Translations under genes and position numbers: made by a program
Origin: Botryllus schlosseri
Taxonomy: Eukaryota
Assembly: GCA_051294905.1 (NCBI GenBank)
Contig: CM119371.1
Coordinates: 5,086,001-5,150,000, forward strand
Length of the DNA stretch: 64,000 nucleotides
Reading direction: 5' to 3'
Shown here: positions 1-63,700 of the stretch, piece by piece
Layout: each line of letters begins with the position of its first letter
How positions within the stretch are numbered: position 1 is the stretch's first letter
The notes under the pieces: generated by a model
Databases searched by the model: none
The model's input: only the letters and a program-made list of their open reading frames with translations
Told to the model about the DNA's origin: nothing

Positions 1-2811
1 TCGAGTGGTCATAAACGCAACATACTTAACATGAGGTACAAACATGCACGCATATTACTGGAACTGACATATCTGTGAAGTCGTGATCCATCTACAGCAT
101 TGTCACAAAGTGCAATGAAATAGGTGTGGTCAGAGGGATAACAAATCATCCTTAATGTGATGTAGGACTGGCATTATATTGGTTGTAGTCGCGGAAAAGT
201 TATTTAAGTTATTTAAACTTTCCACTTCATCCACACTGGTATGGCATCATAATAAGCCATACCGTATTCGAAGACTTGACTCGAAGCCTGATACTCAATT
301 CAATTCCAAATCACCTAGGTACTTGATTTTTGGAAGCCCTACGTATAACAAGTCGAATATCAAAATGGGGCCATGAATTAAAATTTTTAATTAGAAAGGT
401 TTATCGGTTCAGAAAATTGGTTGTCGAATTTTACAGGCCCGTCGACTCAAAAAGGTTGAGAACCAATGATTTAGATTCCCAACAAATAATTTTGTTGTTT
501 TCATCCTGTCAATCCGATTACCTTTAATATGTGTTTTCAGTTGTGATGGAAGTTTACAAAACAGATGTGCCATCACAGAAGCAGAGACTCGTTATTAAAT
601 GCGACTGATTCTGATTAACGTCGTTATCTTCACGATTGTAAGATCATTTACAGAGGTATCAAGATAATAATTGTAGTGTAGGGATCTAATGAAACTAAAT
701 AGAGCTAGGCTGTAATCTAATTCTGTCCTGATTTGTCGAATTTATGAAATGCTCTCAATATTCTAATTTCTGCTTTTCCTGAAGTTGCTACAGGAGAACT
801 GTATCTTGTGAAACCAACGAAGCACGGTGTTACAGACACGTGCGGTCTAAAAATGCCGAATAATCTGTATTGTGATTCCACTGTTTTTGGTTGCATGAAA
901 GGACCTTATTTGAACTTTATACATCATTGATGCTTTTATCATGACATAATGAGTTTTACTGACATAGTCATCTTGATTCGAAGCCTAATACTCACTTCAG
1001 TTTCAAATCAGTCAGGTATTCGATTTTGCACAGCCCTACGTATAACAAGTCAAATATCAAAGTACCAGCGTGATATGAAGTTTCTAACTTGAAAGGATCA
1101 ACGATCTGCAAAATGTGATGTTGAATTTTTACCTGCACCCAAGCTCATTTTTATATTGACCCAACAAATAATGCTACTGATGTCATTCTATCAATCCGAT
1201 TAGCTTTGAATTTCGTTGACAGTGGCCGATGGATCTTGAGAAAGAAGACGAGTCATCGCAGAAGCAGAGACTCGATCTTACTTGCAACAGATTCTGGTTG
1301 GAGTCGTTTATATTCACGGCTGTGCGATCATTCACACGGATATCCAGGTGACATTGTTTGCAGTGGCTCCAGAGAGTGCAAACTGCTGGATTTTTAATAT
1401 GTTCAACTAGAACTAGAACTACTCAGTTTTCAGAACTAAAACTAGAACCAACGACCGTTACAAATCCGCAACTAACTAACTAAAATATAGCTAAGATGAG
1501 TAATAATTGATAATTTAACTTCTGAATTACATATGAGTTCAGAAACATTGGAGATAAAATCGGCATTTTAAACAAACGGGAAGTGTTTGCTTTTAAAATG
1601 TTAAAATATAAGACTAAAACTAGAACTAATCAAAACGGCAGCAGTTTCCGTAGTTGGCCATCATTTAACTGGAATGCTAGTATGCACAACTTTATATACT
1701 TTTGTAAGTCGATGTGAAGTTTGTATTGGCAGCTGGAGAAGATCTTCCCGAACAATATGGAGGTGAAGTTTGAAGATTTCTGTTGAGCTGCCACGGTCGA
1801 CTGTGACAGGTACACAATGAATACTCATTGCGGCTGTCCCGACTATTAATGACCCGGAAGTTCTCGGCAAGAATGCACATAGCTTCAAAGTGGACACCTT
1901 GTTGCTGGGTTCTGTTTCGTGAGTACGTTGCATCAATAGCACCATTGAATACAGATTTTTATAAAAGGAGATCGCAAGGGTCTTAAATGTAGATTGTAGG
2001 GTTTAGCTAAATCAAGTGACTCACTGATTCTATCCTGATCGGAGTATTAGGCTTTAAGTTGCGTATGCGAGTATCACCTCTTGTGACAGCAAAACGTTTT
2101 GAAAATGTTTGGAAGTTCAAATAGGTGACCAGAAATAATGTAATGCCGTTTATACACCACATGAAATGATTTCGTATTTTTTCAACCATCCATATCATGA
2201 CTTGATAAATAAGTCATTTCCACTCACACTGTACCTTTATACTACACATTTTATAAGCTATGATACGGCCAATTGAGGTTCACAGCCTTCCACGTTATAA
2301 AATGAGGGCAAAATCATAATTCTCATTGATGAAATTATCTGTTGGTGGCAAACAGCATATCATTTCAGAACTCGAAATGATCATCTCTCATTTCTCGATT
2401 GTGCCATCCCTAGCAACAAACATCCGACTCGGTAACTTGATGCATGTTTTCCTTTATCGTAGGTATATGCATTGTTGGTCGGTGAGCTACCGCTTATATG
2501 CCAGACGTTACAGGAAACTTTCATTGAAACGGAGAAGAATGAATACACGATTCCACAAAATAATCACCACCAGCTTGTGATCGTTTCTAAAAGGTATGTT
2601 ATAACTCTGACTTCGGGTTGATATTTTGCCTTTTTTCTTATGTGCTTTGCAGTATTGGGATGACCGCGTCAACTTTCTCAAGTGTCTTGACTTGTCTCGA
2701 GTCACATTAAAAAAATGGGGTAACTTGCCTCGAAAAATGAAGTAACTTGACTCGATTCAAAATGTGCAATGACTCGATATGACTTGCGACTCGAACATGA
2801 TGACTTGTTTC

Positions 2812-3349
2812 TAGGGCTGGGCACAATGATTCGAGTACTCGAATCTGAATCGAGTATTAATTTTAATGATTCGAGTCGAGTAGTAAAAGTCGATTTTTTC
2901 GAGGACTGAAATTATACGTTTCTCGCCACTGAAAGTTAATTTATCAACGAGAATTGTAGTTTAGATACTAATTTTCACTGTTGGAGCCTTGGAGCCCGTA
3001 TCGTACCATACGTAACATGTTGGAGCCCGTATCGTACCATACGTAACATGTAGTACAAAGCTACCAACGTTACTGGGAATAGCATGTTTCTGAAGTCATG
3101 ATCATCCCACGACATTGTCACCAAGTGCAATGAAATCGGTATGGTCGAATGATACCAAAGTATCTCTAATGTGATGGATAACAGGCATTATATTCTTTGA
3201 GATCGCATAAAAGGTACATATTAGAGCTTTGACATATTACATTCTATTATGACGTCATAACGAGTGATACTCGATGACTCGACTCGACTCGAAGCATATT
3301 ACATGATTCAGAATCGAATCACTCAGGTACTCGATTTTGCCCAGCCCTA
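2812..3349 (+). mobile_element. hAT-type MITE; intact copy of a family with many decayed copies across the window
   Basis: TIRs TAGGGCTGGGCA...TGCCCAGCCCTA; 8-bp TSD CTTGTTTC. The paralogous sites near 26048 and 62165 are empty. Related fragments occur at ~1-340, 11230-11480, 19556-20035, 26450-26900, 46090-46500 and 61742-62770. Confidence 0.88.
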
Positions 3350-4420
3350 CTTGTTTCCAACACTGACCTACCGTGATTTTCACAGTTTGTTGTCTATTGA
3401 TCCATTACAATGAACTACCGTGAATCACACACTGTGCAGTGAATCTTTCAATGCTACATTCCACAAAAACTGGCGACAACCTGCTTGGCTATCACGCCTA
3501 CAATATCGGAGAGTCAACTGGAGCCAAGTTTCAAAAGTGAGATTTTTACAAGTCTTTAATATGGTTATGAATTGGCAAAAGCGAGTGCTCGAGCCTTGAG
3601 TATTATTTTAGTACTGGAGAAAATCATCCCTCACTTGTCGACTTGAATCATTGGAATAAATACTCGATTCAAATTAGAGTACTTGAACCATCGTGCACAG
3701 CCCTAGTTACGATGAGAGCGCGACCTGTATTGGATCTTTGAGCCAAACCAGTGCCGTAATGACTTGATTCATGACTCGACTCAAGTCATTGCACATGACT
3801 CAACGAAGTCATATAACTTATGCCAAATCAACCAGAAAGTGTCTTATATCTGTTTGAATAAGCCAATTGAGAGTAGATGTGGTGAAAGTAGTCATCACTG
3901 GTACTCAAGCAGAAATAACGACGTAAATTGACACTCAAGTTAAGCTAAAGCTGGCGATTACCAAGTAGGTAAAAAGGCCAATATTCCAGGCCTAAGTTTG
4001 GATTGAGAACCGCAAATTGTGATGGAGAAATGGCATTTGTCTACAATCATAACTACTTGAGTAAGTATTGCAAGTAGACGAAACCTACTTGATTACTTTG
4101 ACAAAGTGAAAGTACTTCTTTGCCGACCATCTCTGGTTAAGAGTGAGATGAATGAGTGTATTTTGAATCCTAGGAGTTCGTTTTACTCTACTGGAGTTAG
4201 GAAAATGAGTTGGGCATGACTTGGGTTCGGACTCGAGTCTCAACACTATGACTTGGACTTGACTTGTTTGTGAATTGAATATGATTGGAGTCAATGACAT
4301 GGAAGAAAGATTGACTCATGACTCAGAATCTTGTGACTTGGTTCCAACCCTGGCCGATACCCATTAAACCGTAACTAGCACCAATCAAGCTGATATGTTC
4401 AGAAGAGATGGGATCTAGCT

Positions 4421-5639
4421 CAGGGGTTCTCAGCCCTTTCTTGGCTGCGGCCCATTTTCTGGTTTAAAAATGTGCTGTGGCCCACCTGATATCTTAGAGT
4501 CATAATCATGTTTAATGCGTGTCCATGGACAGCGCCTATATGCCCATTTCTCTAAAATATGCGCATTTTCTCTAACTGATGATATTTAAAACTCGGTCCC
4601 CGGGATATGAAATCGCGCGTAGCGCGGAAAAAAATTTCAAGTTGAATAAATATCCTCCAACAAACGACCAACGAAATAATCTTGGGCCCCTTCGAGTTCC
4701 CCAATTGGGGGTGTTGGTGCGGTAGTTACGGCCCTGGTAGATCATAAGCTAAAACTCCTAAGTAATAGATTATTTTCGTCCGCTGCTCCATTCGTGTCGC
4801 GATCAGATCCCCACACTGTGTGATTGGAACTTCAGTGATACTATTGTGGGAATATTATAGTCATTCGGGGCCAGCAGCGAACAATTCATTGGTGGGTGGG
4901 GTACTACAGAGAAGTGAAGAATGATTTTTCAATGTGCATGATGTACTTTGTAATGATTTTATGTCTTGTACCAAAGCAACTGAAGTTGTGATGTCAGAAT
5001 ATTCAATCCAATAATACAATCCATTCCTGTGACTTTTTCATTATGTACAATGATTTCCAGGCCGGACATTTTAAACCGATTTCAAAGATTAATGCGCTCC
5101 GATAAATTGTCAATCCATTAAGATACGTTAAAGTGGGTGCAGTATACATCCGCCAGAAGTTGCTAATAATTTGTAATTATGGTTATTTTTAGCTTACGAT
5201 AATACGGCCTGCCGAAGTACAGTAAATCTGTACATCAATTTCACTTCATTGAGAGTTCATTGCATACCCCTTTCAACGGCAAACGGCATATGACGCTGCC
5301 GGAATGCTTGCTTACTTCAACATTAGCTTCCAGTTATTATACGCTTGAAATTATTTTAGTTGCTGTTAGCCGTAGGTTGTCATAGCCAGTAGAAAAAGCC
5401 ACCGTTTCTCCCTAACGTTTTCGATTTGTACATGCAGACTTCATACGTGCCACTACGTCGAATCAGGTTAGGATGAAAAGCTTTGTAGCTATGTAGCCTA
5501 CGTATAATTATATAATACGAATATATTTCTAGCGAATAACATAAGAAATATAACTAAACTTATATTAATTCTGAAATTTTTTAAATGGCTCTGTGGCCCA
5601 CCTCAAAATGCTCTGTGGCCCACACTTTGAGAACCCTTG
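4421..5639 (+). mobile_element. Non-autonomous hAT (Charlie-like) element
   Basis: Ends CAGGGGTTCTCA...TGAGAACCCTTG; 8-bp TSD ATCTAGCT. The paralogous arm near 25020-25040 lacks it. Confidence 0.85.
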
Positions 5640-8600
5640 ATCTAGCTTATGGCGCGTTTTCAAAAGCACAGAGCATTTATTAGAACGGCTTTACAGCTCC
5701 TGTTTGGGCATGAAATGAGCTGGAAAAGCTGCACCCGGACACTTGTATGCAGCGATGCGTGTTTTTCAGCAGCGTATAGAGTAGCCTTGGACTTTTTATG
5801 AGGCCGTATAGATGAAAAGCTTACCAATCCAAAGTTTACCTGTTATATGTTTGCAAAGTAAAAGAAATTTTCCACCCCTTGTCGTAAGGGCAAGTGCTAT
5901 TATCACATAGTTGTATCAGCTTATTGTTTTACATGACAGGTGCCGCTAACACAGTAACCTGTCGGTGACAAGCCAGAGGCGTCCTATATATACAGTGACG
6001 AATCACCAGACTTCCATATGGCTGAACTTGAGGCTCAACTCCAGAAATTGGTCGATACCAATCTGACATCGAAGTCTGCTTTATATATGGGTGCGTATTT
6101 ATATTCTAATCACTACTTGCCCTTATTCTGAATAGACTTCCTCTTTGAAATGTAGGATACTTCTACGGGTCAGATACGTGATATATTAAAATTCCAATCC
6201 CGTAATGGCTCAAATCAATTCATGAGTGTTGCGACAGCTGAAGAATATCAGAAATTCTTTGAACAATGCCAGTTTGTAATATGATATTGATGCATATTTG
6301 TTCCATGTGTCGAAATTCAAATCGGTGCAAATCTCAAATTAAAACCGGTACAAATCAAAGCTATTAGGATTTCCATATCCATATCAAGTTCAACATGTAT
6401 CAGAAAATGACGCATAGAATATTCAAATTCAAAAAGGGTTGTTGAAATCCACAGTGATTAAGAGGTCCGTGTTTTCCAATCAGGCAGATATCATAGATCC
6501 AACTCACAACTCTAGCCAGTATGTGACACAACCAAAAAATGGTTAGCATTAGCTATATATTGCATTTCTGTACATCAAAACTGAGTTTGATTCAACAGAT
6601 GAGGCAGAAGATCCTGCAGCCTGCACCTGTGCATTGGATTGGTGGATCTGACAGATAAAGCAGAATTCAGTATGGCTATTTTTGTATCGTCATTATATAT
6701 GGATAAAAGGAGCTTACAATCTATTTCGATAGATACATCAACGGTCAAAGTAGTCAGCGCGACTACTCGAATAGAAGTAGAGGTAACGTTATACATTTCT
6801 ACTCGTTTGCAAGCAAAAGTTGCAATTTCCAGGACATGTCAAACTACTACATGCAGTAATAGAAGGTGGTCAAAGTAGTCGGTAATGCCACTCAAGTACA
6901 AGTAACATCAATCCAAGTACGACTAATTACAAGTAAATGTAGCGATTTCAAAGGCAGATCAAGACTAATTTATGTGGAAATAGATGGTAGCCAAAGTAGT
7001 CAGCAATGATACTTTAGTAGAACTATCCTAGTAAGTTACTACTTCATTACTGCAGTAGCAATTTCAAAGAGGATGCAAAATTAAGGATGTAAGTCCAAGT
7101 AGATGTAACACTGTAAATTTCAACTCAATTATAAGTAAAAGTGTCGATTTCGCTTATTGACTGGCTATGACATATTAAATACTTGTGCGGCTGTGCGCAC
7201 ATCACACTAGGACAACTATATAATTCTAGGTGTTTAATTAAACTAATCTAATCAAAATGGTAATCCATTTCTTATCTTATTATCGTGTGTTACAAGGCAA
7301 GCTCGATGTACAGGCATTTGTCATTCATGTGCTCATATGGGCTAACTTTTTGTTGGATTTCTTTCCACTTCACAATTGAATTCGATTTCTCAGTTTTTGT
7401 AAATCAAGTATGTCTAATTGTAATTCCAGAAAAGCTGTAGCCAGCATTCTACTTCTAATCCGTTAGATTTTCTAGGTGTCAAACTCTTGCGCCGACCGCC
7501 TTGTACAGATTAATACCTACTAATACTGAACGCGAATTAAAAACTAGGAATTGTGTCAATATGGAACTGCTTCCATATTATATCATACAACTCTGTCTTG
7601 TGTAATACATCTTGGCGTTTCACTGCTCAGGGATGTAGGTAAGTCTTTCAAAATTGTCCTGAATAAAGCAGGCCTTCGAAATTTCTGTAAAATATTCATT
7701 AAATTGAAATCAATTTCAATATTATCCGTACTATAGCAGGCATTCAAATATCTGCAGAATAATGATTTCCTTCAAATTTCAGGTTGTCAACTATGTGATA
7801 ACAACAACCGTGTACTTGTCAACGATAGCACGTGAAGACTTCTGTACGCAAACAACGAATAATGGCGGAGTCCTACTACACCCTCCAACAGTACCCGAGT
7901 ACTCTAAACAAGAAAGTAACCTAGCTCAAGTGTGTCCACAACTACATGTTCGAGCATTTGATCAAGGTTATTCGAATCATGTTATACTACTTGAATTGAA
8001 AATTTATGAAAGGGCTTGACTATTAACTAAAGTGTGACTTGACATTAAAATTGTTCAAACGACTTGATTTGACTCGACTCTAGTCTACATTTGTGTGACT
8101 TTACTTGAAAATTTATTAACTGACTCGAATACAGTCCGAATTTGCGTGATTTGACTTGAAAAATTTATGAAATGGCTTTACTGAAGTGTAGACTTCTAGT
8201 AGAGTAGCATAACTGACTACCTCAGCCACATATCTTCACTTCAAGTAGTTTGTGTCGTTGAAATAGTTACTTCGACTTGCAGTTGATTCGAAATTTATGA
8301 GGTTACTTCTTCTGTAACATCACCGACTGCCACGACGTAACTTCTACTTGCATAGAAACACTGATTAATTTGAAGACCCCCCTCCAACAAAATTGTAACT
8401 CCGTATAAATATTTGCCATTGCTTATCGTTTAAGTGGATGCTTTTACTTGCAGTTGATTTTAAATTTACAAGGTCCCTTAGGGATAGTTTGATCACCTCT
8501 TCTATTGTTTTAATGTTTGTTTTCGTCATCCAGGACCACACCAAAGTGATTCTGTTTCCTATGGTGGGAACCCGTGATTTATATCGACCGAGAACGTAAC

Positions 8601-9989
8601 CTCAGTACCGAAAAATTGGAACTGCTACAAAAATACGGATGCAATCAAAGCCTGGACGGTCGCTTAGGATACGCAGATGGCATCTTGCGAAAGACTACTT
8701 TAGAAGATGATTCGTGAAATGCTTGATACAACTGCAATTCATTTCTATTCGCAAATTGAATCGAGTAAAGCTTTGCAGCTGACTCTTTTGTTTAGCTTGG
8801 AGTGCACTAATCAATGAATGCATAATATGAATGTATTGCAATATTCCGAATCATCTGTACTGCGTGGATATCATGTGATTGAGTCCGTATAAAATGACTT
8901 CGGATCGTTGTGTGGGCATAAATCCAGTGTAATCTTGGCAGGCAAGTCTTTCGTAAACAGAGTTGATGTTATTTATCGAAATAGATGTGTTCAATTGAAT
9001 TTGTGCAATGAGATTTGTGTTTTGCGTTATAGTTTAGAGGCGTGCCGGTAAGATCAAAAGTAGTATGAACTTGTTACTCAATTTGAAGTAGAATTCGCGA
9101 GATATATCTTCAACAAATTATGGATGGAACTAGCAATATTGAAAACGTCTCGAAACTTCCAACAGAGGCAGATAATGAAAGACCCTGAAAGTGCTGGAGT
9201 TGCAGAGACTGAATATGGTTGAAGTGACCAGTAGGCTAGCCTACTATAAGCACTTGATCTGGACTGTCTATTGTCGGAATCGTAATAAAATACATCTTCA
9301 CGACTAACGTAAAATGACTACTGGCAGTACCAGGGTTCCAAGTCACAAGTCAATCTTACTTCTATAGTTTTGACTCAAGTCTAGTCATTCATAATTCACC
9401 ACCGAGTCCAACTAAGTTAGTAGAGGGACGAGTCACAGTGTTATGACTCAAATCCGACTCATCATATGTTAAGTTCAATCCGGATCAACTCACTTTTTCA
9501 ATTATGCTCGAGTGATATAGAATGGCTCGCATTCAATGTACCGTAATTTTCCTCAGTCTGAACACAAAATACCAATATTAGGTAACTTTACTTTTTTTCG
9601 AAGTGGTCGTCCTAGTCCCGAGTCATATTCCTTGGTTCGAGTCGCCATGCAAAATTAATTGAGTAGCCTACAAGTTAAGTCAATACAAAAATTGACTCGA
9701 GTCGAGTCATTACAACTCTGGACACCACGAACAGTTAAAATATTTGAAAATATATTCAGTTACCGTGATATAGGAAGTGTTTCACCCAGTTTTAATGACA
9801 ATGTCATTCATTAAATTGATGCCGACTCAGCATAAACTATGTTCTACTTCTCAAAATACTAAGTGTGTCAAGTAATTGGTGTTACTGAAAAATAGCTAAG
9901 TGAACGTAGTCTATAACAGAGCCTGAATTTCAAAGGACGTTTATTTGGGTTTGAAATGTGAAGGATTTCACACACACAAGACCCCGCAA

Positions 9990-10394
9990 TGCTGTTCAAA
10001 AATAACTTTTTTTTTCGCGATTCAACCCGGTCACTTTTTAAATCGTCAGGTTGCAGTAGAAAACCTTGCTCACCAAATTTCACTCGATTCCAACAAGATC
10101 TCCGCAATTTATCAACGAAAAACTCACATAACTCCGCTTCTACTGGTCGGAATTGAATCAAATTTGTTTTGCAACGTCTTTGAAGACAGCTCAACAATTT
10201 CATGTGGTTGGCAGGAAAATTTGGATTTTTTTTTTAATTTTCCATAATAAATTAAAATTTTTAATTGGATCTGCGGAGTCCTATACTTTTTAGAATCGAA
10301 CCAAATTTGGTGTGCAGCTTTTTTAGGGTAACCTGACAATTTAATCAGTGAATGGCTGAAATCCGAAAAATAAAGTTATTTTTGAACAGCCCTA
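9990..10394. mobile_element. MITE-like element, superfamily uncertain
   Basis: Terminal inverted repeat GCTGTTCAAAAATAACTTT...AAAGTTATTTTTGAACAGC; related sequence at ~46722-47020; no clear TSD. Confidence 0.65.
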
Positions 10395-12719: not shown

Positions 12720-13060
12720 GTTTGGTGCCAGCATGTATATCCATATGACTCTTGAGATGACACATCGGAATGAATGCGTTCCCAATATCCCACATACTTC
12801 ACATAGATGTTTTTTGATTCAAGTATTCATAGACATATGAAGCTGGAGGCTACCTTTCTGAATGAATGCTTTCCCACGTACATGATTTCTAATTCCAACA
12901 TGCGTATCCATATGAAGCTTGAGGCTAGCCTTCTCAGTAAATAGGCACACATTCCCGCCAACATCACATTTATGATTTTTGATTCCAGCATGCATATCCA
13001 TGTGACGTTTGAGGACGTTCTTCAGCAAAAATGCTTTCCCGCATATACCACATTCATGAT
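12720..13060 (-). pseudogene. Degenerate out-of-frame zinc-finger tail of ZF gene 1
   Basis: Remnant fingers such as LKRHMDMHAGIKNHKCDV..FTEKASLKLHMDTH..GKAFIQKGSLQLHM, with indels and lost Cys residues. Confidence 0.75.
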
Positions 13061-50929: not shown

Positions 50930-53381
50930 CACTGGGGTAATCGGTAAAATAGTAGTTATATATGTTATTGGCATTGGCTTGTGCAGTGCCGATGTAATTT
51001 AAGCCATACATCACACAGATTACCAAAGTAAATTCCTATCCAGACAAGGCAGTGCAGTCCCCACAAAATCACCCACAAAGATTAAAACCGAAGTTGTTCC
51101 TAATACTTGCAATACTGTGTATACTTGGTCAACTAGGTTAATCTAGTTGTCTAATCAGAGTAAAAAGCAAATGCAGGAAATCTAAATATAATTTAATTTG
51201 TGAAAAGTTTCTCTGTTTTATTTTATTTTCAATCTCATTTCTGCTTTTCCTAAAAATGCTATAAGACTACTGTACAGTACGATACGCGCCATACTCGTGC
51301 TTAGAAGAATTAACTCCGATTTGATATGAACTGAACTTGATTCAATTTCTTAGTTTTCAATATTTCTAATTCTAATCTAATTCAGGAAAAGCTGTATAGC
51401 TATAATATTATTTCTAATCCAATATGAAAACACTGGTACTGTGAAACAGAGACATTGACATTTAAGAATTTAAAACAGGGATGCTGGACTCTTTTTCAGA
51501 GTAAATACCATTTCATTGTAATTTCGAAGCCAACACACTATTGGGATATCGTTTGTTGGTACTGGTGCTTGAAAATGCGACCAGGAACTGCTAAAAGTGA
51601 GGAAAATTGATATATTATAAATGCGAACCATTCCATATCACCAAACAAAGTTAAAAAGTGGGCTTAGGAAGACTTTAACAGGAAGCTGAGCAGTCAACAC
51701 AATGACTTGGACTCGGATTCGAGTCATAATACCATGACTCGGACTCGATCCTCTGTTCGCTGACTTGGACTCGAACTTGACTCAGTGGGAATTGAAAATG
51801 ACTCGAGTTGAAAATATAAAAATGAGATTGACTTGTGACTCGGAGCCTTGTGACTTGGTTACAACCCTTGTAGATACTACTCAATGCTTGTACGTTGTTC
51901 ATTCTTAGTTATAAGTCCTCAACGTACTTGTTCTTTTTCGCACGTTGATTGTGAGTGTCTGTAACTCAACTGTTATGTGTTTCATATATTCGTTGTTATT
52001 GCTGCTATTGCTTTTTGTAAGATACATTCCGTATTAGCTTACCCTGGTTCGGTATTATGTTATGTGGTTATCTAATTTAAATAACCATTTACCCTGGTTC
52101 TGGCTGACACGAAGATCGTCATGATCATATCGTCGGCACCAGTCAATACCGATAAACCACTCTCTCTCTCTCTGACACCGAGTGTTCACTGTTTTATAGT
52201 AATGCACCTGGACAAAGTTTAGTAGTAGCCTTTCAGGATTCTGTAATTTCAATTCTATTACATGCCTGTCTCATATCATTTTTCACACAATCAGATTTAC
52301 CGGTAGAGCTGAGTGAGGCGTCTTGGAAACTGTAGGGCCCCATTGGTATGACTCCGTAACATGATGTTATTTCATGAACTCCTTGTCTGCTATATCAAAA
52401 AATATAGAATCGCCCAAACGCAGGCTACTAAGATAAAAGACACACATGATTTCAAATTGGAGATTCTTCAGATTGCCAAGACAGAAACATTCGGCGCCAG
52501 ACATTTAGGCGCCTATGGACAATTAAACCTATATGTATTTTGTAAGTTTTCGGTCAGAATAAGGGCAGCCCTTTTCGGTCAAGGTTTTCGTGCTACCGAT
52601 CGTTCTGGCACACTTCTTGGAGTCACATGTAAAATGGCTTAAAACTGTATGTGTCTTTGTGCATCGTGGCGCGGTAATGGCCAAAATATATGCCCATTTC
52701 TATAAATCTTGCATATTTTAACTTGGGGGAAGAATACCCTAAAATCAAGATATTTGGCTTTTTTTTTAAATCGCGTAAATTTACAAAAAATACTTTATAA
52801 TTTAGGCTAATTCTGGAAATAATTTTGGGCCCCCTTCGAGCTCGCCCCCCCCCCCAATTGGGGGGTTTGGGGTGCGGCAGTTAAGGTCCTGCGCGCACTA
52901 TATTCGGAAAATTACAGTACTTTTCAAAACTTGTACCTAGGATTAAATTTTCAACTGTCAACCTTCATAAATTGTCAATTAACTAACTTACATCGAAATA
53001 GATTCAGTTCCGAAACAACACACCAATTTTTATTATATCGGAATCGAAATGTCTTTCGAAAGAATTGTAGTGGGAGGAGTGTTGACCCCTGAAACCAACC
53101 CCTGGATACGCTTACCTAGCAATGGCTGTGAAAACATCGTACACCAGAACACCAGTCTCATGATCACTCCATATGACTACAGTGTTTTCATAGTTTTTAT
53201 GCAACCTATTTTTTCTTAAACTGACGACTCAAATCCGATATACCAGTATTGCAAATATGCTGTTTACATATTAATGATGCAATTTGTGTAGATTTATTCA
53301 ACACTATAACTATAATACATAGCAGGTGGTGTAATAAATAAAATCATTTTGTCAACTTCTGATGAGTACTTTCACAATAAG

Positions 53382-54689
53382 ATGAAAGATTGTCCGTGCG
53401 ATATGGCCAAGAATCCGTTTTCTCAAAAAGTTAACCGCAAGCTTCACACTTATGCGCATGCTGGCATCAAAAATCATAGATGTGCTACATGTGGGAAAGC
53501 ATTCTTTCGAAAGGGTGATCTCAAATGTGATATATGTGGGAAGGCATTCACTCAGAACGGTCACTTCAAGCAACATATGGATATTCATGCTGGCGTCAAA
53601 ACTCATAACTGTGGTATATGTGGGAAAGCATTCTCTCATAAGGTAAACTTCAAGCGTCATATGGATAAACATGCTGGTAACAAAGATCATAAATGTGATA
53701 TATGTGGGAAAGCATTCACTCAGAAAAGTTACCTCAAGAAGCATACGGCATGGCATGTCGGTGACAAAAATCATAAATGTGATATTTGTGGGAACACATT
53801 TACATGCAAGGGTGGCCTCAAGAAACATAGGGATATCCATGCTGGCATAAAAAATCATAAATGTGATACATGTGGGAAAGCATTGTCACGAAAGAGTGAT
53901 CTCAAGCAACATATGGATATGCACGCCGGTAAGAAAGATCATGAATGTGATATATGTGGAAAGGCATTCAGTCAGAGTGGTCACCTCAAGCAGCATATGG
54001 ATATTCATGCTGGCGTCAAAAATTATAAATGTGATATATGTGGAAAAGCATTCACTCAGAAGGGTTACCTCAAGAAGCATACGGCACGGCATGCCGGTGA
54101 CAAAAATCATAAATGTGATATTTGTGGGAGCACATTTACATGCAAGGGTGGCCTCAAGAAACATATGGATATTCATGCTGGCGTCAAAAATCATATATGT
54201 GATATATGTGGGAAAGCATTCTTTCATAAGGTAACCCTCAAGCTTCATATGAATACACATGCAGGTATCAAAGATTATAAATGTGATATATGTGGGAAAT
54301 CATTCAGTCAGAAGGTTCACCTCAAGTACCATATGGATGCCCATGCTGGCGTCAAAAACGAGAAATGTGATATATGTGGGAAAGCATTCATTCAGAAGGT
54401 TTACCTCGAGCATCATATGGACATGCATGCCGGTAACAAATATCATAAATGTGATATATGTGGGAATACATTTATGTGGAAGGTTAGCCTGAAACAACAT
54501 ATTAATATCCATGCTGGTGTTAAAAATCATGAATGTGATGTATGTGGGAAAGTATTCACTCATAGGAGTAACCTTAAGTGTCATATGGATATACATGTTG
54601 GTGGCAAAGATCATAAATGTGATATATGTGGGAAAGCATTCACTCGTAAGGATAAGCTCAAGACTCACATTAATAGCCATACTGGATGA
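53382..54689 (+). CDS. Tandem C2H2 zinc-finger ORF 3 (14 complete fingers plus one truncated in frame), apparently intact
   Basis: Open frame 53349-54689 with first in-frame ATG at 53382. Regular 28-aa CDICGKAF..H-x3-H-AG[VI]KNH repeats ending HTG*. No KRAB, ZAD or BTB domain recognisable; upstream exons are possible. Confidence 0.92.
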   Translation: MKDCPCDMAKNPFSQKVNRKLHTYAHAGIKNHRCATCGKAFFRKGDLKCDICGKAFTQNGHFKQHMDIHAGVKTHNCGICGKAFSHKVNFKRHMDKHAGNKDHKCDICGKAFTQKSYLKKHTAWHVGDKNHKCDICGNTFTCKGGLKKHRDIHAGIKNHKCDTCGKALSRKSDLKQHMDMHAGKKDHECDICGKAFSQSGHLKQHMDIHAGVKNYKCDICGKAFTQKGYLKKHTARHAGDKNHKCDICGSTFTCKGGLKKHMDIHAGVKNHICDICGKAFFHKVTLKLHMNTHAGIKDYKCDICGKSFSQKVHLKYHMDAHAGVKNEKCDICGKAFIQKVYLEHHMDMHAGNKYHKCDICGNTFMWKVSLKQHINIHAGVKNHECDVCGKVFTHRSNLKCHMDIHVGGKDHKCDICGKAFTRKDKLKTHINSHTG

Positions 54690-57600
54690 TGCATAATGGC
54701 ATCTTCCACTATGTATGCGGAATTTTAGCAGCAATATTGACTCTGAACATTAAACTTCCGTTTGATATGTTGAGTTCAGCTCACGATTTCACAGATCTGT
54801 CATTTCTAATAGCTTGTATTGCTTTGTACTGCATATTTCCTATGCTGCAATACCAATGATCGAGGTTTACAGCGTTCCGCAATGGAAAAGAGTACGAAAC
54901 TAAACCCTTGATAAATTAACTCTCATGGGTAAGGAGGATTTAATTTGCACCACATACTCGTATGTCACCACTAACTCAAATAATTGAATATAATTCTTGA
55001 ATCATTGTGTGTTATTGTGCCCACCCATACAAGTAACCAGTCGACAAAAGGGTGGTTGGAAATATTTGTGACGTGATAATGGACACTGTTCAACTCCGTT
55101 GAGACGCATTGGTACAATGATAGCTGTGCGTGTGACAGATACCACATGCTTTTGCTGGTCTCTGTGCTCATTGATGTTCTTGAACATTGGACGTATTCTA
55201 CTGCACATCTCTTGTTATCATGATAAAGAATCCTACGTATCTCTGGTGCACATGCGCATTAGTTAAACTCTTATTAAAGTGCTTATTAAAGTAACTTATC
55301 CGATCAATACATGTGAAAAGGCAACTTGTCGTGGTACATTTGTTCAAGCTGCCGGGGCAAGAACGCGTGACTGTTGCCTTCGATTAATGCTGACAAACTA
55401 TAAGCAGTGGTTCGTCGCGACCCAATCCTGGATTGTGAAGAAGAGTTGAATGTAGGAAAGTATACTAGGCCTACTAACAGCAGGTCCTGGCTCCTCAGGT
55501 CTGCACAAAACAATTGAATATAGTCGTTTCTCGATCAAGTTATGATAATTTCCGATCACGACACACATCAGGTAGCGACCGCACCAGAGTAGACTTGAAC
55601 GCACTATTAATCTAGTTTGTTTTGTTGATGGGCCACTAAATATTGGTTTTTGAGTAGTTCTAGTTGCACATTTGAGAAAAGATTCCTAATGCTAGGCTGA
55701 TTTGTACAAACTAGCGATCAAGTTGGTCGACTGTCAACTAACTGCTAGTTTTTTTGTGTAGCTCTATTTCAAGTTGCGCCTTTTGAAAAAATATTAATTT
55801 TCAAACAACTAGAAACACGTGTCGTCGTTTGACATGAATCGTGATACCGGTTTTCCGTTGTTTGATGTGCTTACAGTTACAGGGATTGTCAGCTTGGAGT
55901 CATCACACAGCTAACAGTGGCGTAGCCAGGGAGTCAGTTTGTTGTGGCCGAAACTTATCTTATTTCAATTTCGATAAGCCCGTCCTTTGTATATGCCAAT
56001 TTTATCTAATTTGTACTTAACTAATTCTTCGGAGTTGAATCTTAGTCAGTTGTGTTTGAGTAACACTTGCGGGCGGAAAGGTCGTTGTTTCTAGTTTTAG
56101 TTTCTATTTTTTTAAATTGAGTAATTACCGTATTTTTCAAGTAAGTTGTGAGTTTTTAAGAGAAAGTAGTTTTAGTTTCGAGTTATGTAAAATGAGTCTA
56201 GTTCTAGCTTTTGTTACTCATTGTGGAAATTCATTAGAATGTTCTTTGCATCCTACATTGCACAAGGGCCCCTATTTTTGTTCAATATTAGTTTTTTAAA
56301 CTGAATCGTCCATCCCAGTGACTCAAGATTCTGTGAGATTGAATGAAAGGGTCTGAACCCTGAAGCCATTGATGTACGCATGCCGGACAATACAAAATGT
56401 TGCGCAATATCAATATTACGAAAGAAACATTTTAGCGACGTCAAAATCACCGAATCGATGAGCTATTTAATCGTGTTTCATCCAACTGCGTAGCGCACAA
56501 CTGATTGTCCGCATAGGCCGGGGTCAAACTATTTATAGTTGGTACTTAAGTAAAAGTAGATAAAGTTTAGCGCCGTAAATTTCCCAAAATATATCCTGGA
56601 ACTAGTGAAAGTGGAAATTATATTAAAAGTACATCCTGGAAGTATATTCAGTAATCGCGATGCCACGGGCATTAATCACCAAGTAGTAAGGAGTCTGAAA
56701 CATTAGAAGTAGGCTACTTCGTTTCTGAATACGTCAAGAAAGGATTGAGGATTCACCGTTATCGCAAGTTTTCAGCACAGCGCGAAACAACAGCGTAATG
56801 CGCTCCTATTTATTATTTCCAGCCCGAATAGCGCGGTATATTACATACAATATTGTCCAACTCTGAGTCTCGTATCTTTAAACTCACCGACTCCAAACAT
56901 TCACCTCACACAACTACTACAACTGTACTTCGATAAATAATGATAGGCCATTGGGACGGTGACATGATTTTCATGTCATCTGCTGCCACTAGTAGGCTGG
57001 TCATGACATGTCTTGAAAATCGCATGTCCTGCTTGTAATTCAGTAGAAATGTAGGCTATGCAGCGACCTTCCCTCTTAAGTATTGACGCCGAATACTTTG
57101 GACCACCCCTTGTAAGGCTATGCTTAAAAACTCCTTTTCTGACTATCTCTGGTTAAGGGTGAGACATATGAACATATTATGAATGCGGGAGACTCTATTC
57201 ACCCAGGCCGACTATTCTAGCATGACTTGAACTCGAGACTGGCCAGTAATACCAGGGATATCTAGACTATACACTCCTTAGCAACCCACAGTTGGAGCTG
57301 GAATCAGACTTGACTCGTGAGCGAATCGAAAACGACTCAAGTCAAAACCACAAACGTAAGACGGACTTGTGACTCACAACCTTGTGTCTTGCTACACCCC
57401 TGCGGAAAAGACAATCAACAGCAAAGCATAGGGATTTCATTCGCGAATGTATGAATGTAATGAAAAAGGCAATTACACAATCACACAAAGTTGAAACAAG
57501 AGTATCACGAATCGTCTTCTGAAGTAGATGGAATATTCATGTACGGGCTTTCCAACATACAGTGTTGGTATTGTAAGCGAGCTCCCAGACTATGATTGCA

Positions 57601-57844
57601 ACCGTATTTTGCAGCAGTTGCAATTAGTAGGTTGTGAAGTTACGTTGCTGGTCGCTGTAAGTCAGGCATCCCATCAGAGGACACAGGATCACTTTCGGTG
57701 TGGTCCTGTATGATAAAAAGATAGATTGAAACAACCGCACTCGTGTAAATTTATAATCAATTACAAGTACTAATAACATTTTGGTATTATTCGATAGACG
57801 TACTCAGTATAAAAGTACAAGAGTACTTGAATAGGTTGGAGTAC

Positions 57845-58670
57845 TTATTGGCTGATGACGTGTTCAGGGTAACCGTTATCAGCCGTGGCATAGAGAGGAA
57901 ATGAGCGCAATTCAACACAGAAAAACAGAGCCCACCGAACGAACAAGAAAAGATGTTTACATCCATCTACCTTGAATTGGCCCCATTTCCACCCGCTTTG
58001 AAAAACAATTGATTTCTGCGGCCAGTAAGTGTTACGACTCAGTCAAAACCAATGTGATTTTTACAACAACACAACTGCGCCCCTTCAACACGCAAAGACG
58101 TTCTCCCTGCACTTCAAGAAAGTAATGTAGTGTACGAATATAAGTGCCACTGTGATTGTGGCTACGTGGGAAGAACGTCAAAACGTCTGCAGGAATGCAT
58201 AAACCAACATGTCCCCAGATTTATCAGAACACGTGCATCACGCTCAGTGAAAAGCTCACCCTTGACTCATCTGCTTAAGATTGATGCTGATCGATCAAAG
58301 GCCATTAATTCTGCCATTGGCAAACATCTGTTAGATAATCCGATCTGTGCGAATAATATAGAGACGACCGATTTCGAATCGTTTGGCGGGGCCGTTCACA
58401 ATTCCATTTGTGTGCCTCGAAGTCGACTTTTATCAAAATACACCAACCAAAACTCTGTCAACAAAAAGAGTTCGTGTACCACCTAAAAATAGTACATTGA
58501 ACGCTCTCTCATTCGATATTTCATGCTGGTGACGTCATATTTTGTGATACGATTTTTGATATACTATGTTCTTTCCAATTCTCTACTAGTTGCTGACGAT
58601 TATCCCTGAGGAGTGTCAGTCGAAAATATTCGGGTTCATTTCAATATGAATATACTATTCAATTGTATAT
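57845..58670 (+). mobile_element. Penelope-like element 3' remnant (GIY-YIG endonuclease and pLTR region) with an inverted 5' piece
   Basis: Plus strand reads ..VYIHLP*IG..KDVLPALQESNVVYEYKCHCDCGYVGRTSKRLQECINQH..SAIGKHL, a PLE GIY-YIG signature. Minus strand ~57845-57915 reads DNGYPEHVISQ, the PLE thumb motif. Related 3' sequence occurs at ~31875-31985. Confidence 0.82.
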
Positions 58671-59127
58671 TGAAGTTCTGTACCTCAAGAAGCTCTTCAA
58701 ATATACAGAAATGTAACATATAGCGAGTGGTAACAAATTTTTGTTACTGTCACATACGTCACAATTTGGGTCTACGATATCTGCTGATCCTGATACGCAT
58801 ATGGGGTTCCTTTTCACTTTGAACATTACATTTTGAATTTGAGATTAGAGTAAATGTGGATTCCTAGACGTCGACCAGATCCGAATCTCTGTCATTTTGG
58901 AAACTGGATTCAGACAAAAAAATTCTGATATGCTTTAGAGTTGTCGCGACACACATGAATTGATTTGAGCCATTGTCAGAGTTGGATTTCTAACATGACA
59001 TCTCTGATTTGTAGAATTATCCTAAATTTCAAAGAGCAAGTTTTTTTAAAATAAAATCAATTAGTGGTTATATAAATAAGGACTCACCCATATTCATAGA
59101 AGACTTCAAAGTTGGATTGGTATCGAT

Positions 59128-60772
59128 TAGGGTTAGTTCGGATATCAATAATTTCCACTATCCGGATAACGGATATATCCGTATATTTGGAATTTAGCTA
59201 ACCGGTTAACCGGATAGTGAATCCTAAGTGAGATAATCGATTTCACGAGGTCTGCATGAAAAATGGATCGCAAAATCATTACCCAGTGTAATTGCAGCTC
59301 TCTCCTCACACCGCATCAATAGTGGCATCCTGTAGCCGGGACCGTAGTTTTGTAACAAAGAGTCCACACGTATGAAATGCTCTTTCTGCTTCCACAAAAT
59401 GGGCTGAATTATAGTAAGCAATGATGTCCAGTACTGGAAGGAAGAGTAGCTGATACCAGAATTGAGGCCGACATGATAGCTCGCTCTAATTCCTCCATGA
59501 GAAATTCACATGATCAGGCCCGTAGCGAGCCGAAAAATAAAAGGGCGTTTTAAATAAAACGAGGTGGTTTCGATTTTTTTTTTCGAATTTAGTATCTGCG
59601 GAAATCAAATACGCTTACACGCACGAACATGTTTCGGAAATGCGAACATTCGATGTCATTCAGTTTCGCAATGTCACTCATTAATCACAATCGCTGTTCA
59701 AAATAATCTCAGCGGCATATTGTCTCCAAGCCACCAGTGATAGGAGCCAACGCATGCCAGGCCCGAGACTATGGTTACGCCAGCGATGATATCGTTCGTA
59801 CCATGCCTATTGCAGATGCGATTGCGCAGGCTAGCGATAAGATCGTGAGCACCAAGCCAATGGAGATGCGATTATGTAGGCCAGTGATGGTATAATGTCC
59901 ACAGAGCCTATTGCAGATGTGATTCTGCCAGCGAAACAGCGGCTTGTTGAAGACTCGAAAAACCAGGCCAGCAACGATAGCCGAGTTCGCGGCAATCAAT
60001 GACCTAATTTGGCGATCTTCTCAGCGGGAGATTGCGTCGCGTTCAGTGATGAGCATCGGGGCGGAGTGGATTCGGAGCGGAGTTTTGCCGATTTTGTGAC
60101 AGTCGGAGCGTTGTCGGAGTTTACAACAAATATTTTTTCGGAAAATTTCGGAGTATTGTAACTTTTGTCTCCGATATCTTTGGATAGCTCTGACCTGAAT
60201 ACACTCTTGATTAGGATTACAAACCAAAACACAGACAGTTGACACCTTGTAAAGTTTTAATATGGCAAGTAACATGCGAAAATGATTACCAAGTGCATAA
60301 AAATCAGCCATCTGCACTGCAATTGGGGACTGGAGAGTAGACAATACTATGACGACAACCATATTATCACATTAATTTACTAACACACATTACCAAGTGT
60401 ACCATGCTTGCTACTGTTTCGGATACTTGACGAGATTCGTCGGAGTCTGGGATTGCGCTGTTCGGAGTCGGAGGGAGTTTTCCTCAGACTCTAAAGTTGT
60501 CGGAGGGATTCGGAGTCTCGAAAAGCACTATCTGCTCATCACTGGTCGCGTTACACAGTGCATTGACGTATCCCGCTAACTGGGGACACGCTTCTCTCTA
60601 ATTAGCCGCGTGAAACACTGATAATACGACTTATTGAAGCTTCCTAAAAGTTTAAAACACATTATTAACGATACTATTTTATCTGGTTAACCGGCAGATG
60701 TATATCCGGATATCGGATGATCAAAAAACCTGCGTTTAACCGGTTAACCGTTATCCGGATAATCCAACCCTA
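59128..60772 (-). mobile_element. Deleted hAT transposon with a transposase C-terminal remnant, inserted in a PLK1 pseudo-exon
   Basis: Ends TAGGGTT...AACCCTA with repeated CCGGATA/AACCGGTT subterminal motifs; 8-bp TSD GTATCGAT. Minus strand ~59310-59405 reads VEAERAFHTCGLFVTKLRSRLQDATIDA, resembling the hAT dimerisation region. Confidence 0.88.
60044..60544 (+). mobile_element. hAT-type MITE nested in the 59128-60772 element
   Basis: TIRs CAGTGATGAGCA...TGCTCATCACTG; 8-bp TSD GTCGCGTT; repeated TCGGAG subterminal motifs. Confidence 0.9.
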
Positions 60773-63700
60773 GTATCGATCGATTTTTTTGGTTAAGCAT
60801 CCAGTTCTGTCATATGGAAGTGTGCTGATTCGTTACTGAGAATAATGGTCGCCTATGGCTTGTCACCAACAGGTATCTGTGTCTCTTTATTAATAGCACC
60901 TGAAAAGTAAAACGGTAAGCTGACATAACTGCTCGATAATAGCACTGAGTTTTCGATAAGGGGTCAAAAATTTATTTGACTTTGCTAACATATAACAAGT
61001 TGAACTTTTGGCTTGTTAGGTTTTTCAACTATATGATCTCATAAAAGTCGTAGGCTACTGTATATTCAGCATGTAACGAGTCAAGTACAGTTGGCGACTT
61101 CCTTAAGCGTTGCAAAGTATCACTGACAATAAATCAACAATTAAATTATAGTACATACCTTAAACCAGGTAAATCACAAGTAATTTCATAGTGAAGGTAA
61201 TTTACCTGAAGTATTTGTTGCAAGCTTATCTTCTTCAAAGATTGCTGGTACAACACAAACTATGAAATATACTGCAGCAATTTCAAGTGATTAAATTTGC
61301 CATCGTTGCAGCTTGATATTTTTTCACACATTGCATTCTACGTTGAAACCAGGGCTTCGGACCAGCCGTAAATTTAAACTGCCCCGGCTCCGGAGGTCTC
61401 TTCTATCATACATTAGCTCCGGCTCCAGCTCCGGAGCCGCATTATTACCACTGCTCCGGCTCTGAAATTATCGAATGGGCCTAGCTATATCAGGGGTGGC
61501 CAACCCGCGGGCCAAATGTGGTGAGTACTCTGTTACTGACCATCCATACATACAAGTGTTTGGGTGCAGCCTGTCTAGTTTATTTCATATCGAACGATGC
61601 GCAACGACTCGCGTACAAGCCCAGTCCATACACAAATTGACTCGAGTGACTGCGAAATTGTGATTCAAGTCGATTCATGACTCAACTCATTACAAGCTGG
61701 CTGGGCACCAAATTCCAATATTGCGCGTACTCTTATCGTAACTAGGGCCGGGTACAATGATGCAAGTACTCAAATCTAAATCGAGTATGAATTTGAATGA
61801 TTCTAGTCAAGTAATGAATTATTATTATTTCCAGTACTGAAATGGTACACCCCTTGACACTAAGAAGTCTATGAGTCGTGTTCAACCCTCAGCATTGTCA
61901 CGAACTGTCATGAAGTAGGTATGGTCGAATATTTTCTTCTAAATTATCTTGATTGTGATGTGGAACTGGCATTACATTTTCAGCGGTAGCCTAATTCAAC
62001 TTTCCACAGTTTTCACCCTATATGACGTCATTATCGTTGGTACTCGCATACTCGACTCGATGTCTAATACTCGATCCATAATGAAGTCAGTGAAGTACTC
62101 GATTTTGTCAGCCGTAAACATGTTATACAACATGCTATGAAAAATCATGGTAGGTCAGCATTGGAAACGAGTCACCATGTTCGACTCGCAAGTCATATCG
62201 AGTCATTGCATATTTTGAATTGATTCAAGTTACTCGATTTTTCCAGGCCATGTCAAAAGTAGGAGTCTAGAGTCAGGGAAAGTCACTCATTTTTTTATTG
62301 TGACTTGAGTCAAGGTAAGTCTCTCGATATTTCAAGGAGACTTGGGTCAGATGAAGTCACTGGAGTTAAGACAAAACACCTAAAATTGCTCACCAAGAGT
62401 TAAATTATTAACGAGAATTATCGCTTTGATATTATTTTTCCTTGAGGAAAGCTGTAAACCTTGATTTGTGGTATCGCAGCGTAAGAAACATGTGGTATAA
62501 AGGCACAGCATTACTGGAAACAACATATCTATGAAGTCGTGGTCCAGCCACGTATTGTCACCAACTGCAATGAAATAGGTATGGTTGAAAAATACAAATT
62601 ATGTAATGTGGTGTAGAAATGGCATTACGTTATTTGTGGTCGCATAGTTGAACTTTCCAAAATTTTCACAATGGTATGCAGTCACAAGAGGTTATACTCA
62701 AATACTCAACTTGAAGCTTAATACTTGGATCAGGTTAGAATTTGTCAGCTACTCGATTCTGCTCAGCCCTACACCTAATACCCTCGCAGCCTCCTTTTAC
62801 AAAAATTCCTTATCAATGTTGGCTGATACTCACAAACACAACTCAGTGACCAGGCGTTCACTTTGAAGCTGTGTCCATACTTGCCGACAACTTCCGGGGC
62901 AATATACTTACTTTCGTGTGCTGCAAAAAGTATTCTTTTTGTGGCTGTCAAAGTCGACCTTGGCAGCTTGAGCGAACTCTCCGATCTTCACAACTATATT
63001 GTTCACGGATAGGTTCCACAGCTGTCAATACAAATTTCACATTCAGATACACAAGTTTACAAACTTGTACAAACTAATAATCTAGCTAATTTATGACCAG
63101 CTTGGTACTTTTTTTTGAGTAGTTCAAGTTTTAGTAGCGGATTTGAAAAGCGAGTAGTTCTAGTTGTAGTTATGAAAAGTGCATGGTTATTGATATGCGT
63201 TTCCAAAGCAATTTCCGTACATCTAGAAAACATGAGTCGTCGTTTGGCGGGAATCGTGATACCGGTGTTCAGTTGTTTGATGTTTTTGCAGCCATCGCTA
63301 GATCACAGTCATAACTAGAAACAGTGGCGTAGCCAGTGAGTGGGTTTTGGGGGTTGACACACCTGTCATTTTTAAATAAAACGCCGGTCATTTTGAAATA
63401 CTGATTCTATCTTCGAATTTCCTAGTTCATTTGTTATTCAGTAATTTGTGTCATCAGTTATTAATTAGTGGCAGAATCTTCATGGTCATTAACTCCGGTT
63501 TAGAATTTTGAAAAGTGAGTAGTTTGTAGAAGTCTGACACTACTGCCAGAAATGTTACCTTGATATCCATGTGAACCATCTTACAATCGTGAAGATGAAA
63601 AACTACAAGCAGAAAATGTTGCACTTAGCAACGAGTCTCTTGTTCTGTGATGGCACACCTTCTTTAGTAAACTTTCATCAGTAATGAAAACAAATGGAAA

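What the first reader, a model, noticed from the sequence alone, without database searches (positions are those of the whole stretch)
541..63684. A duplication unit couples a C2H2 zinc-finger gene tail-to-tail with a PLK1 gene copy, three times in 64 kb
Seen: three exon-intron PLK1 pseudogenes (541-8717 +, 22040-32693 -, 57505-63684 -) each converge on a tandem ZF gene, with collinear introns and spacers. PLK1 is normally a conserved low-copy mitotic kinase. Inference: a ZF-family expansion carried a neighbouring PLK1 along; the kinase copies decayed while long ZF frames stayed open. PLK1 remnants could serve as a neutral clock and marker for the whole cluster.
Basis: partly seen in the sequence, partly recalled or inferred. 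Interest (0 to 1): 0.7.

Follow-up and report, generated by a model that had tools for sequence, protein, structure and literature searches.

The report
Zinc-finger genes with dead PLK1 passengers
A block of DNA holding a zinc-finger gene and a broken copy of the cell-division kinase gene PLK1 was copied three times here; the kinase pieces are decaying passengers, so this is a neat but ordinary case of gene-cluster growth.

Summary
Observation confirmed. Three intron-bearing PLK1 relics (A +, B -, C -; 29 exon-sized pieces) each end 2.9-4.0 kb from the 3' end of a tandem C2H2 gene. The shared block is larger than reported: it includes a 5' element upstream of each zinc-finger (ZF) gene, and A/B form a fold-back centred at about 15,713. 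For A-C and B-C the PLK1 side and ZF side are equally diverged (75-77% identity), as co-duplication predicts. The PLK1 relics are kinase-dead and evolve neutrally; the fingers show purifying selection at zinc ligands. Three corrections: (1) the A and B PLK1 halves are much younger (84.6%) than their ZF-side flanks (75.8%) and share stops and frameshifts, so the relics are not a simple clock; (2) B is two partial copies, A has an extra exon, and C shows 4 of 11 exons; (3) only ZF3 looks intact, and expression was not shown. The scan's earlier notes report ZF-PLK1 debris and PLK1 exon arrays on other DNA of this genome (-750 kb to +1.3 Mb; unchecked here). Verdict: block duplication with a pseudogene passenger, a new member of a known kind.

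The parts
524..678 (+). Extra, older PLK1 exon copy A1 (residues ~127-168), not the sister of A2
   Evidence: in the tree A2 pairs with B2 (99/97), A1 does not
1205..8780 (+). PLK1 pseudogene A: 9 of 11 exon types (residues 127-580), about 4 stops and 6 frameshifts
8700..12655 (.). Spacer A, collinear in inverted orientation with spacer B; about 40% interspersed repeat
12676..14080 (-). ZF1: 12 fingers in an open frame (13025-14080), then 5 frameshifted finger remnants; head replaced by about 510 bp of other sequence
15448..15978 (.). Degraded palindrome (arms 75% identical, centre about 15,713): two back-to-back copies of the ZF 5' element, the fold-back point of units A and B. Promoter or first-exon role is inferred
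17686..18998 (+). ZF2: head with a stop and frameshift relative to ZF3; open frame 17837-18811 with 10 complete fingers; frameshift in the 11th, then 2-3 remnants
18995..22070 (.). Spacer B
21969..28699 (-). PLK1 pseudogene B2: residues 77-563, sister of A; shares stops and frameshifts with A
29800..32729 (-). Partial PLK1 copy B1: exons for residues 28-76, 77-126, 127-168 and two copies of the 274-325 exon
34236..39436 (-). Recent LTR retrotransposon between units B and C (identical LTRs of about 230 bp, 5-bp target duplication, 1540-codon open frame); not part of the unit
40998..43888 (+). LINE-type element with RT domain between units B and C; not part of the unit
44321..45129 (+). 5' element of unit C, collinear with 15689-16671 of unit B, about 9 kb upstream of ZF3
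53272..54689 (+). ZF3: apparently intact; ATG at 53382, one finger shortened in frame, 14 complete fingers, stop directly after the last finger
54690..57545 (.). Spacer C, thinly collinear with spacers A and B
57450..63700 (-). PLK1 pseudogene C: 4 of 11 exon types in the window (residues 127-168, 169-230, linker exon split by an insertion, 528-579); runs towards the window end

Best explanation
Local block duplication with a dead passenger, later reshuffled. (1) Shown: a block [5' element - ZF exon ->, 3-4 kb spacer, <- intron-bearing PLK1 copy] exists three times; B and C are in direct orientation, and A is a fold-back of B around the 5' element. (2) Shown: the three blocks split at about the same depth (JC 0.27-0.30) on the ZF side, and on the PLK1 side for A-C and B-C. 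(3) Shown: the PLK1 parts have evolved neutrally since and are kinase-dead. Inferred: the copied PLK1 died at or shortly before the first split. (4) Shown: the PLK1 halves of A and B are younger (JC 0.17) and share lesions. Inferred: about 8 kb of one inverted arm overwrote the other by ectopic gene conversion, or a crossover near the PLK1 3' end made a chimeric unit. (5) Shown: finger arrays were remodelled inside each gene after the split, with zinc ligands conserved. Inferred: they worked as sequence-specific DNA-binding proteins of a lineage-specific family; ZF3 probably still does, while ZF1 and ZF2 are truncated or decaying. (6) Inferred: selection on new ZF genes retained the duplicates, and PLK1 DNA rode along because it lay next door; the tail-to-tail geometry has no function of its own.
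For: Equal identity of both halves: B-C 0.767 (PLK1 side) vs 0.774 (ZF side), A-C 0.754 vs 0.761; A-B 0.846 vs 0.758, P=3e-10. Neutrality: mismatches by codon position 39/36/41, 35/32/31 and 24/21/19; dN/dS 0.69 (CI 0.47-1.08), 1.11 and 0.98; A-B exon identity 0.842 vs intron 0.847. HRD reads HTD/HTA/HMD and DFG reads DFC/DFS/EFA. A and B share stops near residues 187 and 281 and frameshifts near 397 and 540. At 56 near-invariant PLK1 columns covered in all three, 23 are kept by all and only 1 has the same change in all three. Fingers: 0 amino-acid changes at Cys/His ligands against 11.6, 8.1 and 15.3 expected at the synonymous rate (6, 4 and 7 disjoint pairs; P=9e-6, 3e-4, 2e-7); fingers cluster by gene. 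Shared 5' element and head sequence.
Against: C's spacer shares only one unique block with each of A and B. ZF-side blocks are short and BLAST-selected (926, 672 and 297 columns). PLK1 pieces also duplicated without ZF (A1, B1), and earlier notes describe arrays of 26-34 PLK1 exons elsewhere (unchecked), so ZF as the driver is not shown. The ligand test left out finger units beyond the frameshifts and three irregular units, which favours constraint; absence of stops alone is significant only for ZF3 (P=0.023; ZF1 0.078, ZF2 0.22). The parent PLK1 was not seen.
Confidence: 0.7

Rival explanations
1. PLK1-centred amplicon: an unstable region rich in PLK1 fragments amplified by its own recombination, and ZF genes were swept along in some copies. 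Same blocks, opposite driver.
For: Partial tandem PLK1 copies without ZF inside A and B; late homogenisation is confined to the PLK1 halves; earlier notes of arrays of about 26-34 PLK1 exons 137-750 kb upstream (unchecked).
Against: PLK1 parts show no constraint while the fingers do. All three PLK1 last exons in the window have a convergent ZF gene (3 of 3).
Confidence: 0.18
2. The PLK1 relic has a non-coding job: a convergent or antisense transcript or small-RNA source that regulates the ZF gene or the true PLK1, kept and homogenised for that reason.
For: Orientation and a 2.9-4.0 kb distance are kept in 3 of 3 blocks; 14 of 15 splice dinucleotides are identical in A and B against 71% of 459 intronic AG/GT (P=0.04); contigs of a run guessed to be RNA cover the last exon of A and of B.
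Against: Exons are no more conserved than introns. The splice-site excess is weak: some sites were picked by eye, and the background includes non-ancestral AG/GT. The same run has spacer contigs at like depth, and none of the 15 joints shown matches a PLK1 intron.
Confidence: 0.06
3. The block is cargo of a large DNA transposon (Helitron- or Pack-MULE-like capture).
For: Repeated multi-gene block in a transposon-rich region.
Against: No shared terminal repeats at block ends in self-BLAST; copies are adjacent, one as a fold-back and one in direct tandem; no transposase or helicase frame of 120 codons or more among those listed. Termini this old could be eroded, and I ran no dedicated terminus search.
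Confidence: 0.04
4. Assembly artefact (uncollapsed haplotypes).
For: The species looks polymorphic: the best DNA run shares 0.55 of sampled words, another sample 0.29.
Against: Copies are only 75-85% identical, with different large insertions and inverted orientation.
Confidence: 0.02

Closest known systems
Block-duplication units with passenger pseudogenes in the primate MHC class I region (PMC12674619, passages read)
   Same: A selected gene family grows by copying blocks that carry flanking pseudogenes and fragments of other gene families in a repeating pattern.
   Different: Here the family is tandem C2H2 ZF and the passenger is an intron-bearing copy of the mitotic kinase PLK1; one copy is a fold-back.
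Clustered tandem C2H2 ZF families: mouse KRAB-ZFP clusters (PMC5363842, passages) and zebrafish FiNZ-ZNF genes (PMC10547256, passages)
   Same: Clustered, segmentally duplicated poly-ZF genes and pseudogenes, with finger duplications and deletions inside each array and variable base-contacting residues.
   Different: No effector domain found (no KRAB, SCAN, BTB or ZAD hit among 85 upstream frames); linkers start Ala-Gly in 31 of 36 fingers rather than Thr-Gly; the nearest database proteins are at most 49% and 52% identical; positive selection at contact residues not shown.
Partial PLK1 copies POLO-F to POLO-K of Daphnia pulex (PMC2680839, passages read; lead from earlier scan notes)
   Same: Truncated, rearranged or stop-bearing PLK1 duplicates read as pseudogenes or remnants of partial duplication.
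   Different: Six copies, with no ZF linkage in the passages read; here 29 exon pieces in 64 kb, tied to ZF genes.
Conversion between paralogues in gene clusters (PMC3161012, abstract only)
   Same: Conversion makes part of two paralogous segments look younger and misleads trees and dates.
   Different: Here conversion is inferred from an identity step in one pair of three; a chimeric crossover fits equally.

Membership tests
Polo-like kinase 1 (origin of the relics) | Kinase domain closest to PLK1 | tested here: met
   (PLK1 > PLK2 > PLK3 > PLK4 > others); one search is a near tie with PLK2
Polo-like kinase 1 (origin of the relics) | C-terminal polo-box domain of PLK1 type, downstream of the kinase exons | tested here: met
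   C keeps only the last polo-box exon
Polo-like kinase 1 (working gene) | Open frame with intact HRD and DFG motifs | tested here: not met
   about 4/6, 11/11 and 5/3 stops/frameshifts; motifs altered in all three
Duplicated (unprocessed) pseudogene | Introns retained with GT-AG ends at shared positions | tested here: met
Duplicated (unprocessed) pseudogene | Neutral evolution | tested here: met
   all three dN/dS intervals include 1 but are wide
Duplicated (unprocessed) pseudogene | Intact parent gene elsewhere in the genome | not testable with these tools
   no genome held
Block (segmental) duplication unit | Collinear homology across both genes, spacer and 5' flank | tested here: met
   strong for A-B, thin in the spacer of C
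Block (segmental) duplication unit | Same divergence along the whole unit | tested here: inconclusive
   met for B-C and A-C, not met for A-B
Block (segmental) duplication unit | Shared breakpoints at both ends | tested here: inconclusive
   5' end defined near 15,689 and 44,321; the PLK1-side ends of A and C run off the window
Clustered tandem C2H2 ZF genes (KRAB/FiNZ-like) | Tandem C2H2 array in one exon with conserved ligands | tested here: met
Clustered tandem C2H2 ZF genes (KRAB/FiNZ-like) | N-terminal effector domain on an upstream exon | tested here: not met
   no such Pfam hit in 85 sense frames of 35-40 codons or more; short exons or unmodelled domains would be missed
Clustered tandem C2H2 ZF genes (KRAB/FiNZ-like) | Canonical TGEKP-type linker | tested here: not met
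   31 of 36 start AG, 1 TG (the last); in 237 database hits TG 1443 vs AG 69
Clustered tandem C2H2 ZF genes (KRAB/FiNZ-like) | Positive selection at base-contacting residues | tested here: inconclusive
   pN/pS 1.22, 0.76, 1.14; none differs from 1
Clustered tandem C2H2 ZF genes (KRAB/FiNZ-like) | Expressed, spliced transcript | tested here: inconclusive

The most novel reading that the evidence does not exclude
The ZF-PLK1 block is the growth unit of a megabase-scale, undescribed ZF family in which both halves matter: the PLK1 relic is kept convergent and homogenised because it yields regulatory RNA acting on the ZF gene or on true PLK1, and the ZF proteins, whose Ala-Gly linkers lack the threonine that TOPK phosphorylates to release C2H2 proteins from mitotic chromatin (PMC4359306), stay bound through mitosis.
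Probability: 0.05. Interest if true: 0.75.

Novelty: new member of a known kind. Interest (0 to 1): 0.28.

Why it matters
As it stands it is a clear worked example of how a ZF cluster grows in an invertebrate-type genome, and a warning: the passenger pseudogene is neutral yet misdates one of three duplications by about 40%. The intron-bearing relics remain useful as markers of block identity, since finger arrays lose orthology quickly. The ZF family itself, with no close database relative and non-canonical linkers, is the part most worth following. If the relics proved transcribed and regulatory, it would be a new link between a ZF cluster and a core mitotic kinase.

Tried and rejected
Whole-genome search: no genome held, so parent PLK1 and genome-wide pair counts were not obtained. 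Protein searches with ZF2 and ZF3 found only generic ZF proteins (best 120 listed each). The metagenome scan gave 26 unrelated loci (28-42% identity), none with a PLK1 hit. Run search: no RNA holder listed among indexed runs; this is no evidence on expression. RNA lay on 7700-27699 with 4 of the 24 listed runs (3-13% of three raw runs read, plus one contig set): 6129 of 6166, 3827 of 3861 and 6616 of 7500 laid reads fit only partly (repeat-derived); depth over ZF2 was 2 or less; none of the 15 joints shown (95 not shown) matches a PLK1 or ZF intron. Effector-domain scan: 85 frames, 2 weak hits below curated cut-offs. The gene-model script placed spurious exons in C (residues 230-507) and in the linker of A; these were dropped after DNA-level checks. 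A candidate B1 copy of the 231-273 exon was rejected (45-52% identity). Ranking PLK1 proteins by fit put vertebrates above cnidarians and nematodes, but the set is vertebrate-heavy, so I draw no taxonomy from it. Literature: 'PLK1 pseudogene' 0 papers; the five-term search on polo-like kinase, pseudogenes, zinc finger, segmental duplication and cluster 0 papers; some searches gave listings only, with nothing on a ZF-PLK1 block in titles or abstract starts. The library lacks most subscription papers, and no supplements were read.
Full report
Setting. The window is 64 kb of animal-type DNA, mostly 36-41% GC outside the retroelements, with three 84-bp-period arrays. No genome was held. Residue numbers follow chicken PLK1 (P0331).

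PLK1 relics are real. One kinase exon of copy B matches PLK1 best among solved structures (41.2 bits; PLK2 36.5, PLK3 31.1, PLK4 27.9, others 22.7 or less). Another is a near tie with PLK2. Polo-box exons from B, C and A match only PLK1/Polo below E=0.1. A profile of 24 PLK1/Polo proteins and tblastn place exons in order in all three regions. My frameshift-aware spliced alignment gives about 4 stops and 6 frameshifts in A, 11 and 11 in B, and 5 and 3 in the three confident exons of C; HRD and DFG are altered in all. DNA profiles built from the copies find 29 exon-sized pieces of 11 types: A 10, B 15, C 4. These profiles match their own members by construction, and the three linker-exon pieces rest on position only. 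B is a partial copy B1 (32729-29800) followed by B2 (28699-21969). A has an extra exon at 524-678 that is not the sister of A2, whereas A2 pairs with B2 (99/97).

The block. Each PLK1 last exon faces the 3' end of a ZF array across 3956, 3076 and 2856 bp. The A-B spacers chain collinearly at 822 bits (256 after masking repeats), above all 56 control windows. B-C and A-C keep one unique block each (67 and 41 bits; 0 of 56 controls reach them), and unmasked A-C is reached by 1 of 56. New here: the block extends 5' of the ZF gene. A degraded palindrome at 15448-15978 lies between ZF1 and ZF2, and each arm matches 44321-44538 upstream of ZF3; further pieces at 16544-16671 and 17686-17926 are collinear with 44863-45129 and 53272-53516. 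A and B are therefore a fold-back around about 15,713. B and C are direct copies separated mainly by a young LTR element and a LINE. That the 5' element is a promoter or first exon is inference.

Ages. Gap-free identity, PLK1 side against ZF side: B-C 0.767 vs 0.774, A-C 0.754 vs 0.761, A-B 0.846 vs 0.758 (5519 vs 926 columns; Fisher P=3e-10). Two of three pairs show the equal ages that co-duplication predicts. The third shows that the PLK1 halves of A and B were made alike later; identity stays near 0.8 to about 9,090 and then falls. A and B2 share stops near residues 187 and 281 and frameshifts near 397 and 540; C lacks the two of these that fall in exons it retains. So the sequence that spread between A and B was already dead. 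Gene conversion between inverted arms or a chimeric crossover would both explain this. Conversion is known to mislead cluster dating (PMC3161012, abstract only). ZF-side blocks are short and BLAST-selected, which should inflate their identity and so make the A-B gap conservative.

Selection. PLK1 exons: mismatches are even across codon positions; dN/dS 0.69 (0.47-1.08; 253 codons), 1.11 (135) and 0.98 (111); exon identity equals intron identity in A-B (0.842 vs 0.847). Of 56 near-invariant columns covered in A2, B2 and C, 23 are kept in all, 1 has the same change in all, and the copies keep 32, 39 and 36. I infer a near-canonical source that died around the first split. Fingers: in 17 disjoint within-gene pairs from 35 units there is no amino-acid change at Cys/His ligands, against 11.6, 8.1 and 15.3 expected; overall pN/pS is 0.59, 0.40 and 0.63; contact positions give 1.22, 0.76 and 1.14, none different from 1. 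Units beyond the frameshifts (5 in ZF1, 2-3 in ZF2) and three irregular units were left out, which favours constraint. Fingers cluster by gene (5 label changes vs 16.5 shuffled; 63 columns, weak support), so arrays were remodelled after duplication.

State of the ZF genes. ZF3 is open from its head through 14 complete fingers to a stop right after the last. ZF2's head has a stop and frameshift relative to ZF3, and its 11th finger is frameshifted. ZF1's head is replaced by about 510 bp of other sequence and its tail is frameshifted. Both could still make finger-only proteins from an ATG at the array start. Linkers start Ala-Gly in 31 of 36 fingers; among 237 database hits Thr-Gly outnumbers Ala-Gly 1443 to 69. 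The canonical first Ser/Thr is the mitotic phosphorylation site that releases C2H2 proteins from chromatin (PMC4359306, abstract and passages); any consequence here is speculation. No effector domain was found upstream and no close relative in databases.

Expression. Four runs from four studies were laid on 7700-27699 at 90% likeness. Nearly all reads fit only in part and pile on repeats; depth over ZF2 is 2 or less; no listed joint matches an intron. Contigs of run X8 (RNA only guessed) cover the last exons of A and B with 18 and 23 differences, but cover spacer DNA at similar depth.

Context. Earlier notes of this scan (AI notes, unchecked) report PLK1 exon arrays and ZF-PLK1 debris from 750 kb upstream to 1.3 Mb downstream, and an array running into bases 1-1918 of this window. 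If right, the tidy three-fold unit here is one corner of a larger field in which PLK1 pieces also multiplied alone, which leaves open which half drove the expansion.

Comparison and verdict. It works like MHC-type block duplication with passenger pseudogenes (PMC12674619, passages) inside a tandem ZF cluster (PMC5363842 and PMC10547256, passages). Partial PLK1 pseudogenes are known from Daphnia (PMC2680839, passages). I found no paper on a ZF-PLK1 block (searches gave 0 papers; other searches, listings only), within a library that lacks most subscription papers. Observation confirmed; interpretation partly supported; new member of a known kind; interest 0.28.

Noticed in passing
window 34236-39436 (-): Very recent LTR retrotransposon: LTRs 100% identical, 5-bp target duplication, single 1540-codon frame with RT, RNase H and integrase domains.
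   Followed up: partly
window 34172-34235 plus 39437-39855, against 40998-41473: The LTR element sits inside a 98-99.5% identical upstream duplicate of a 480-bp piece of the neighbouring LINE; origin of the duplicate unexplained.
   Followed up: partly
window 15448-15978: Old fold-back junction with the two ZF 5' elements back to back; could act as a bidirectional promoter for ZF1 and ZF2. An X8 contig covers 15879-16148.
   Followed up: partly
ZF1, ZF2, ZF3: Ala-Gly-Ile/Val-Lys-Asn-His-type linkers replace TGEKPY; three ZF1 linkers are one residue short.
   Followed up: partly
window 2463-2593 against 26256-26379: One PLK1 exon is 93% identical between A and B, against 86% in its flanks; a possible later short conversion tract.
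   Followed up: no
window 17500-17590 and 21430-21520: Multi-copy elements that draw most RNA reads in the laid stretch; the first looks like a tRNA-derived SINE by eye (recalled resemblance, not tested).
   Followed up: no
window 58058-58483 and 59127-60743: Insertions inside copy C: an unassigned 142-codon frame with no Pfam hit, and about 1.6 kb splitting the linker exon.
   Followed up: no
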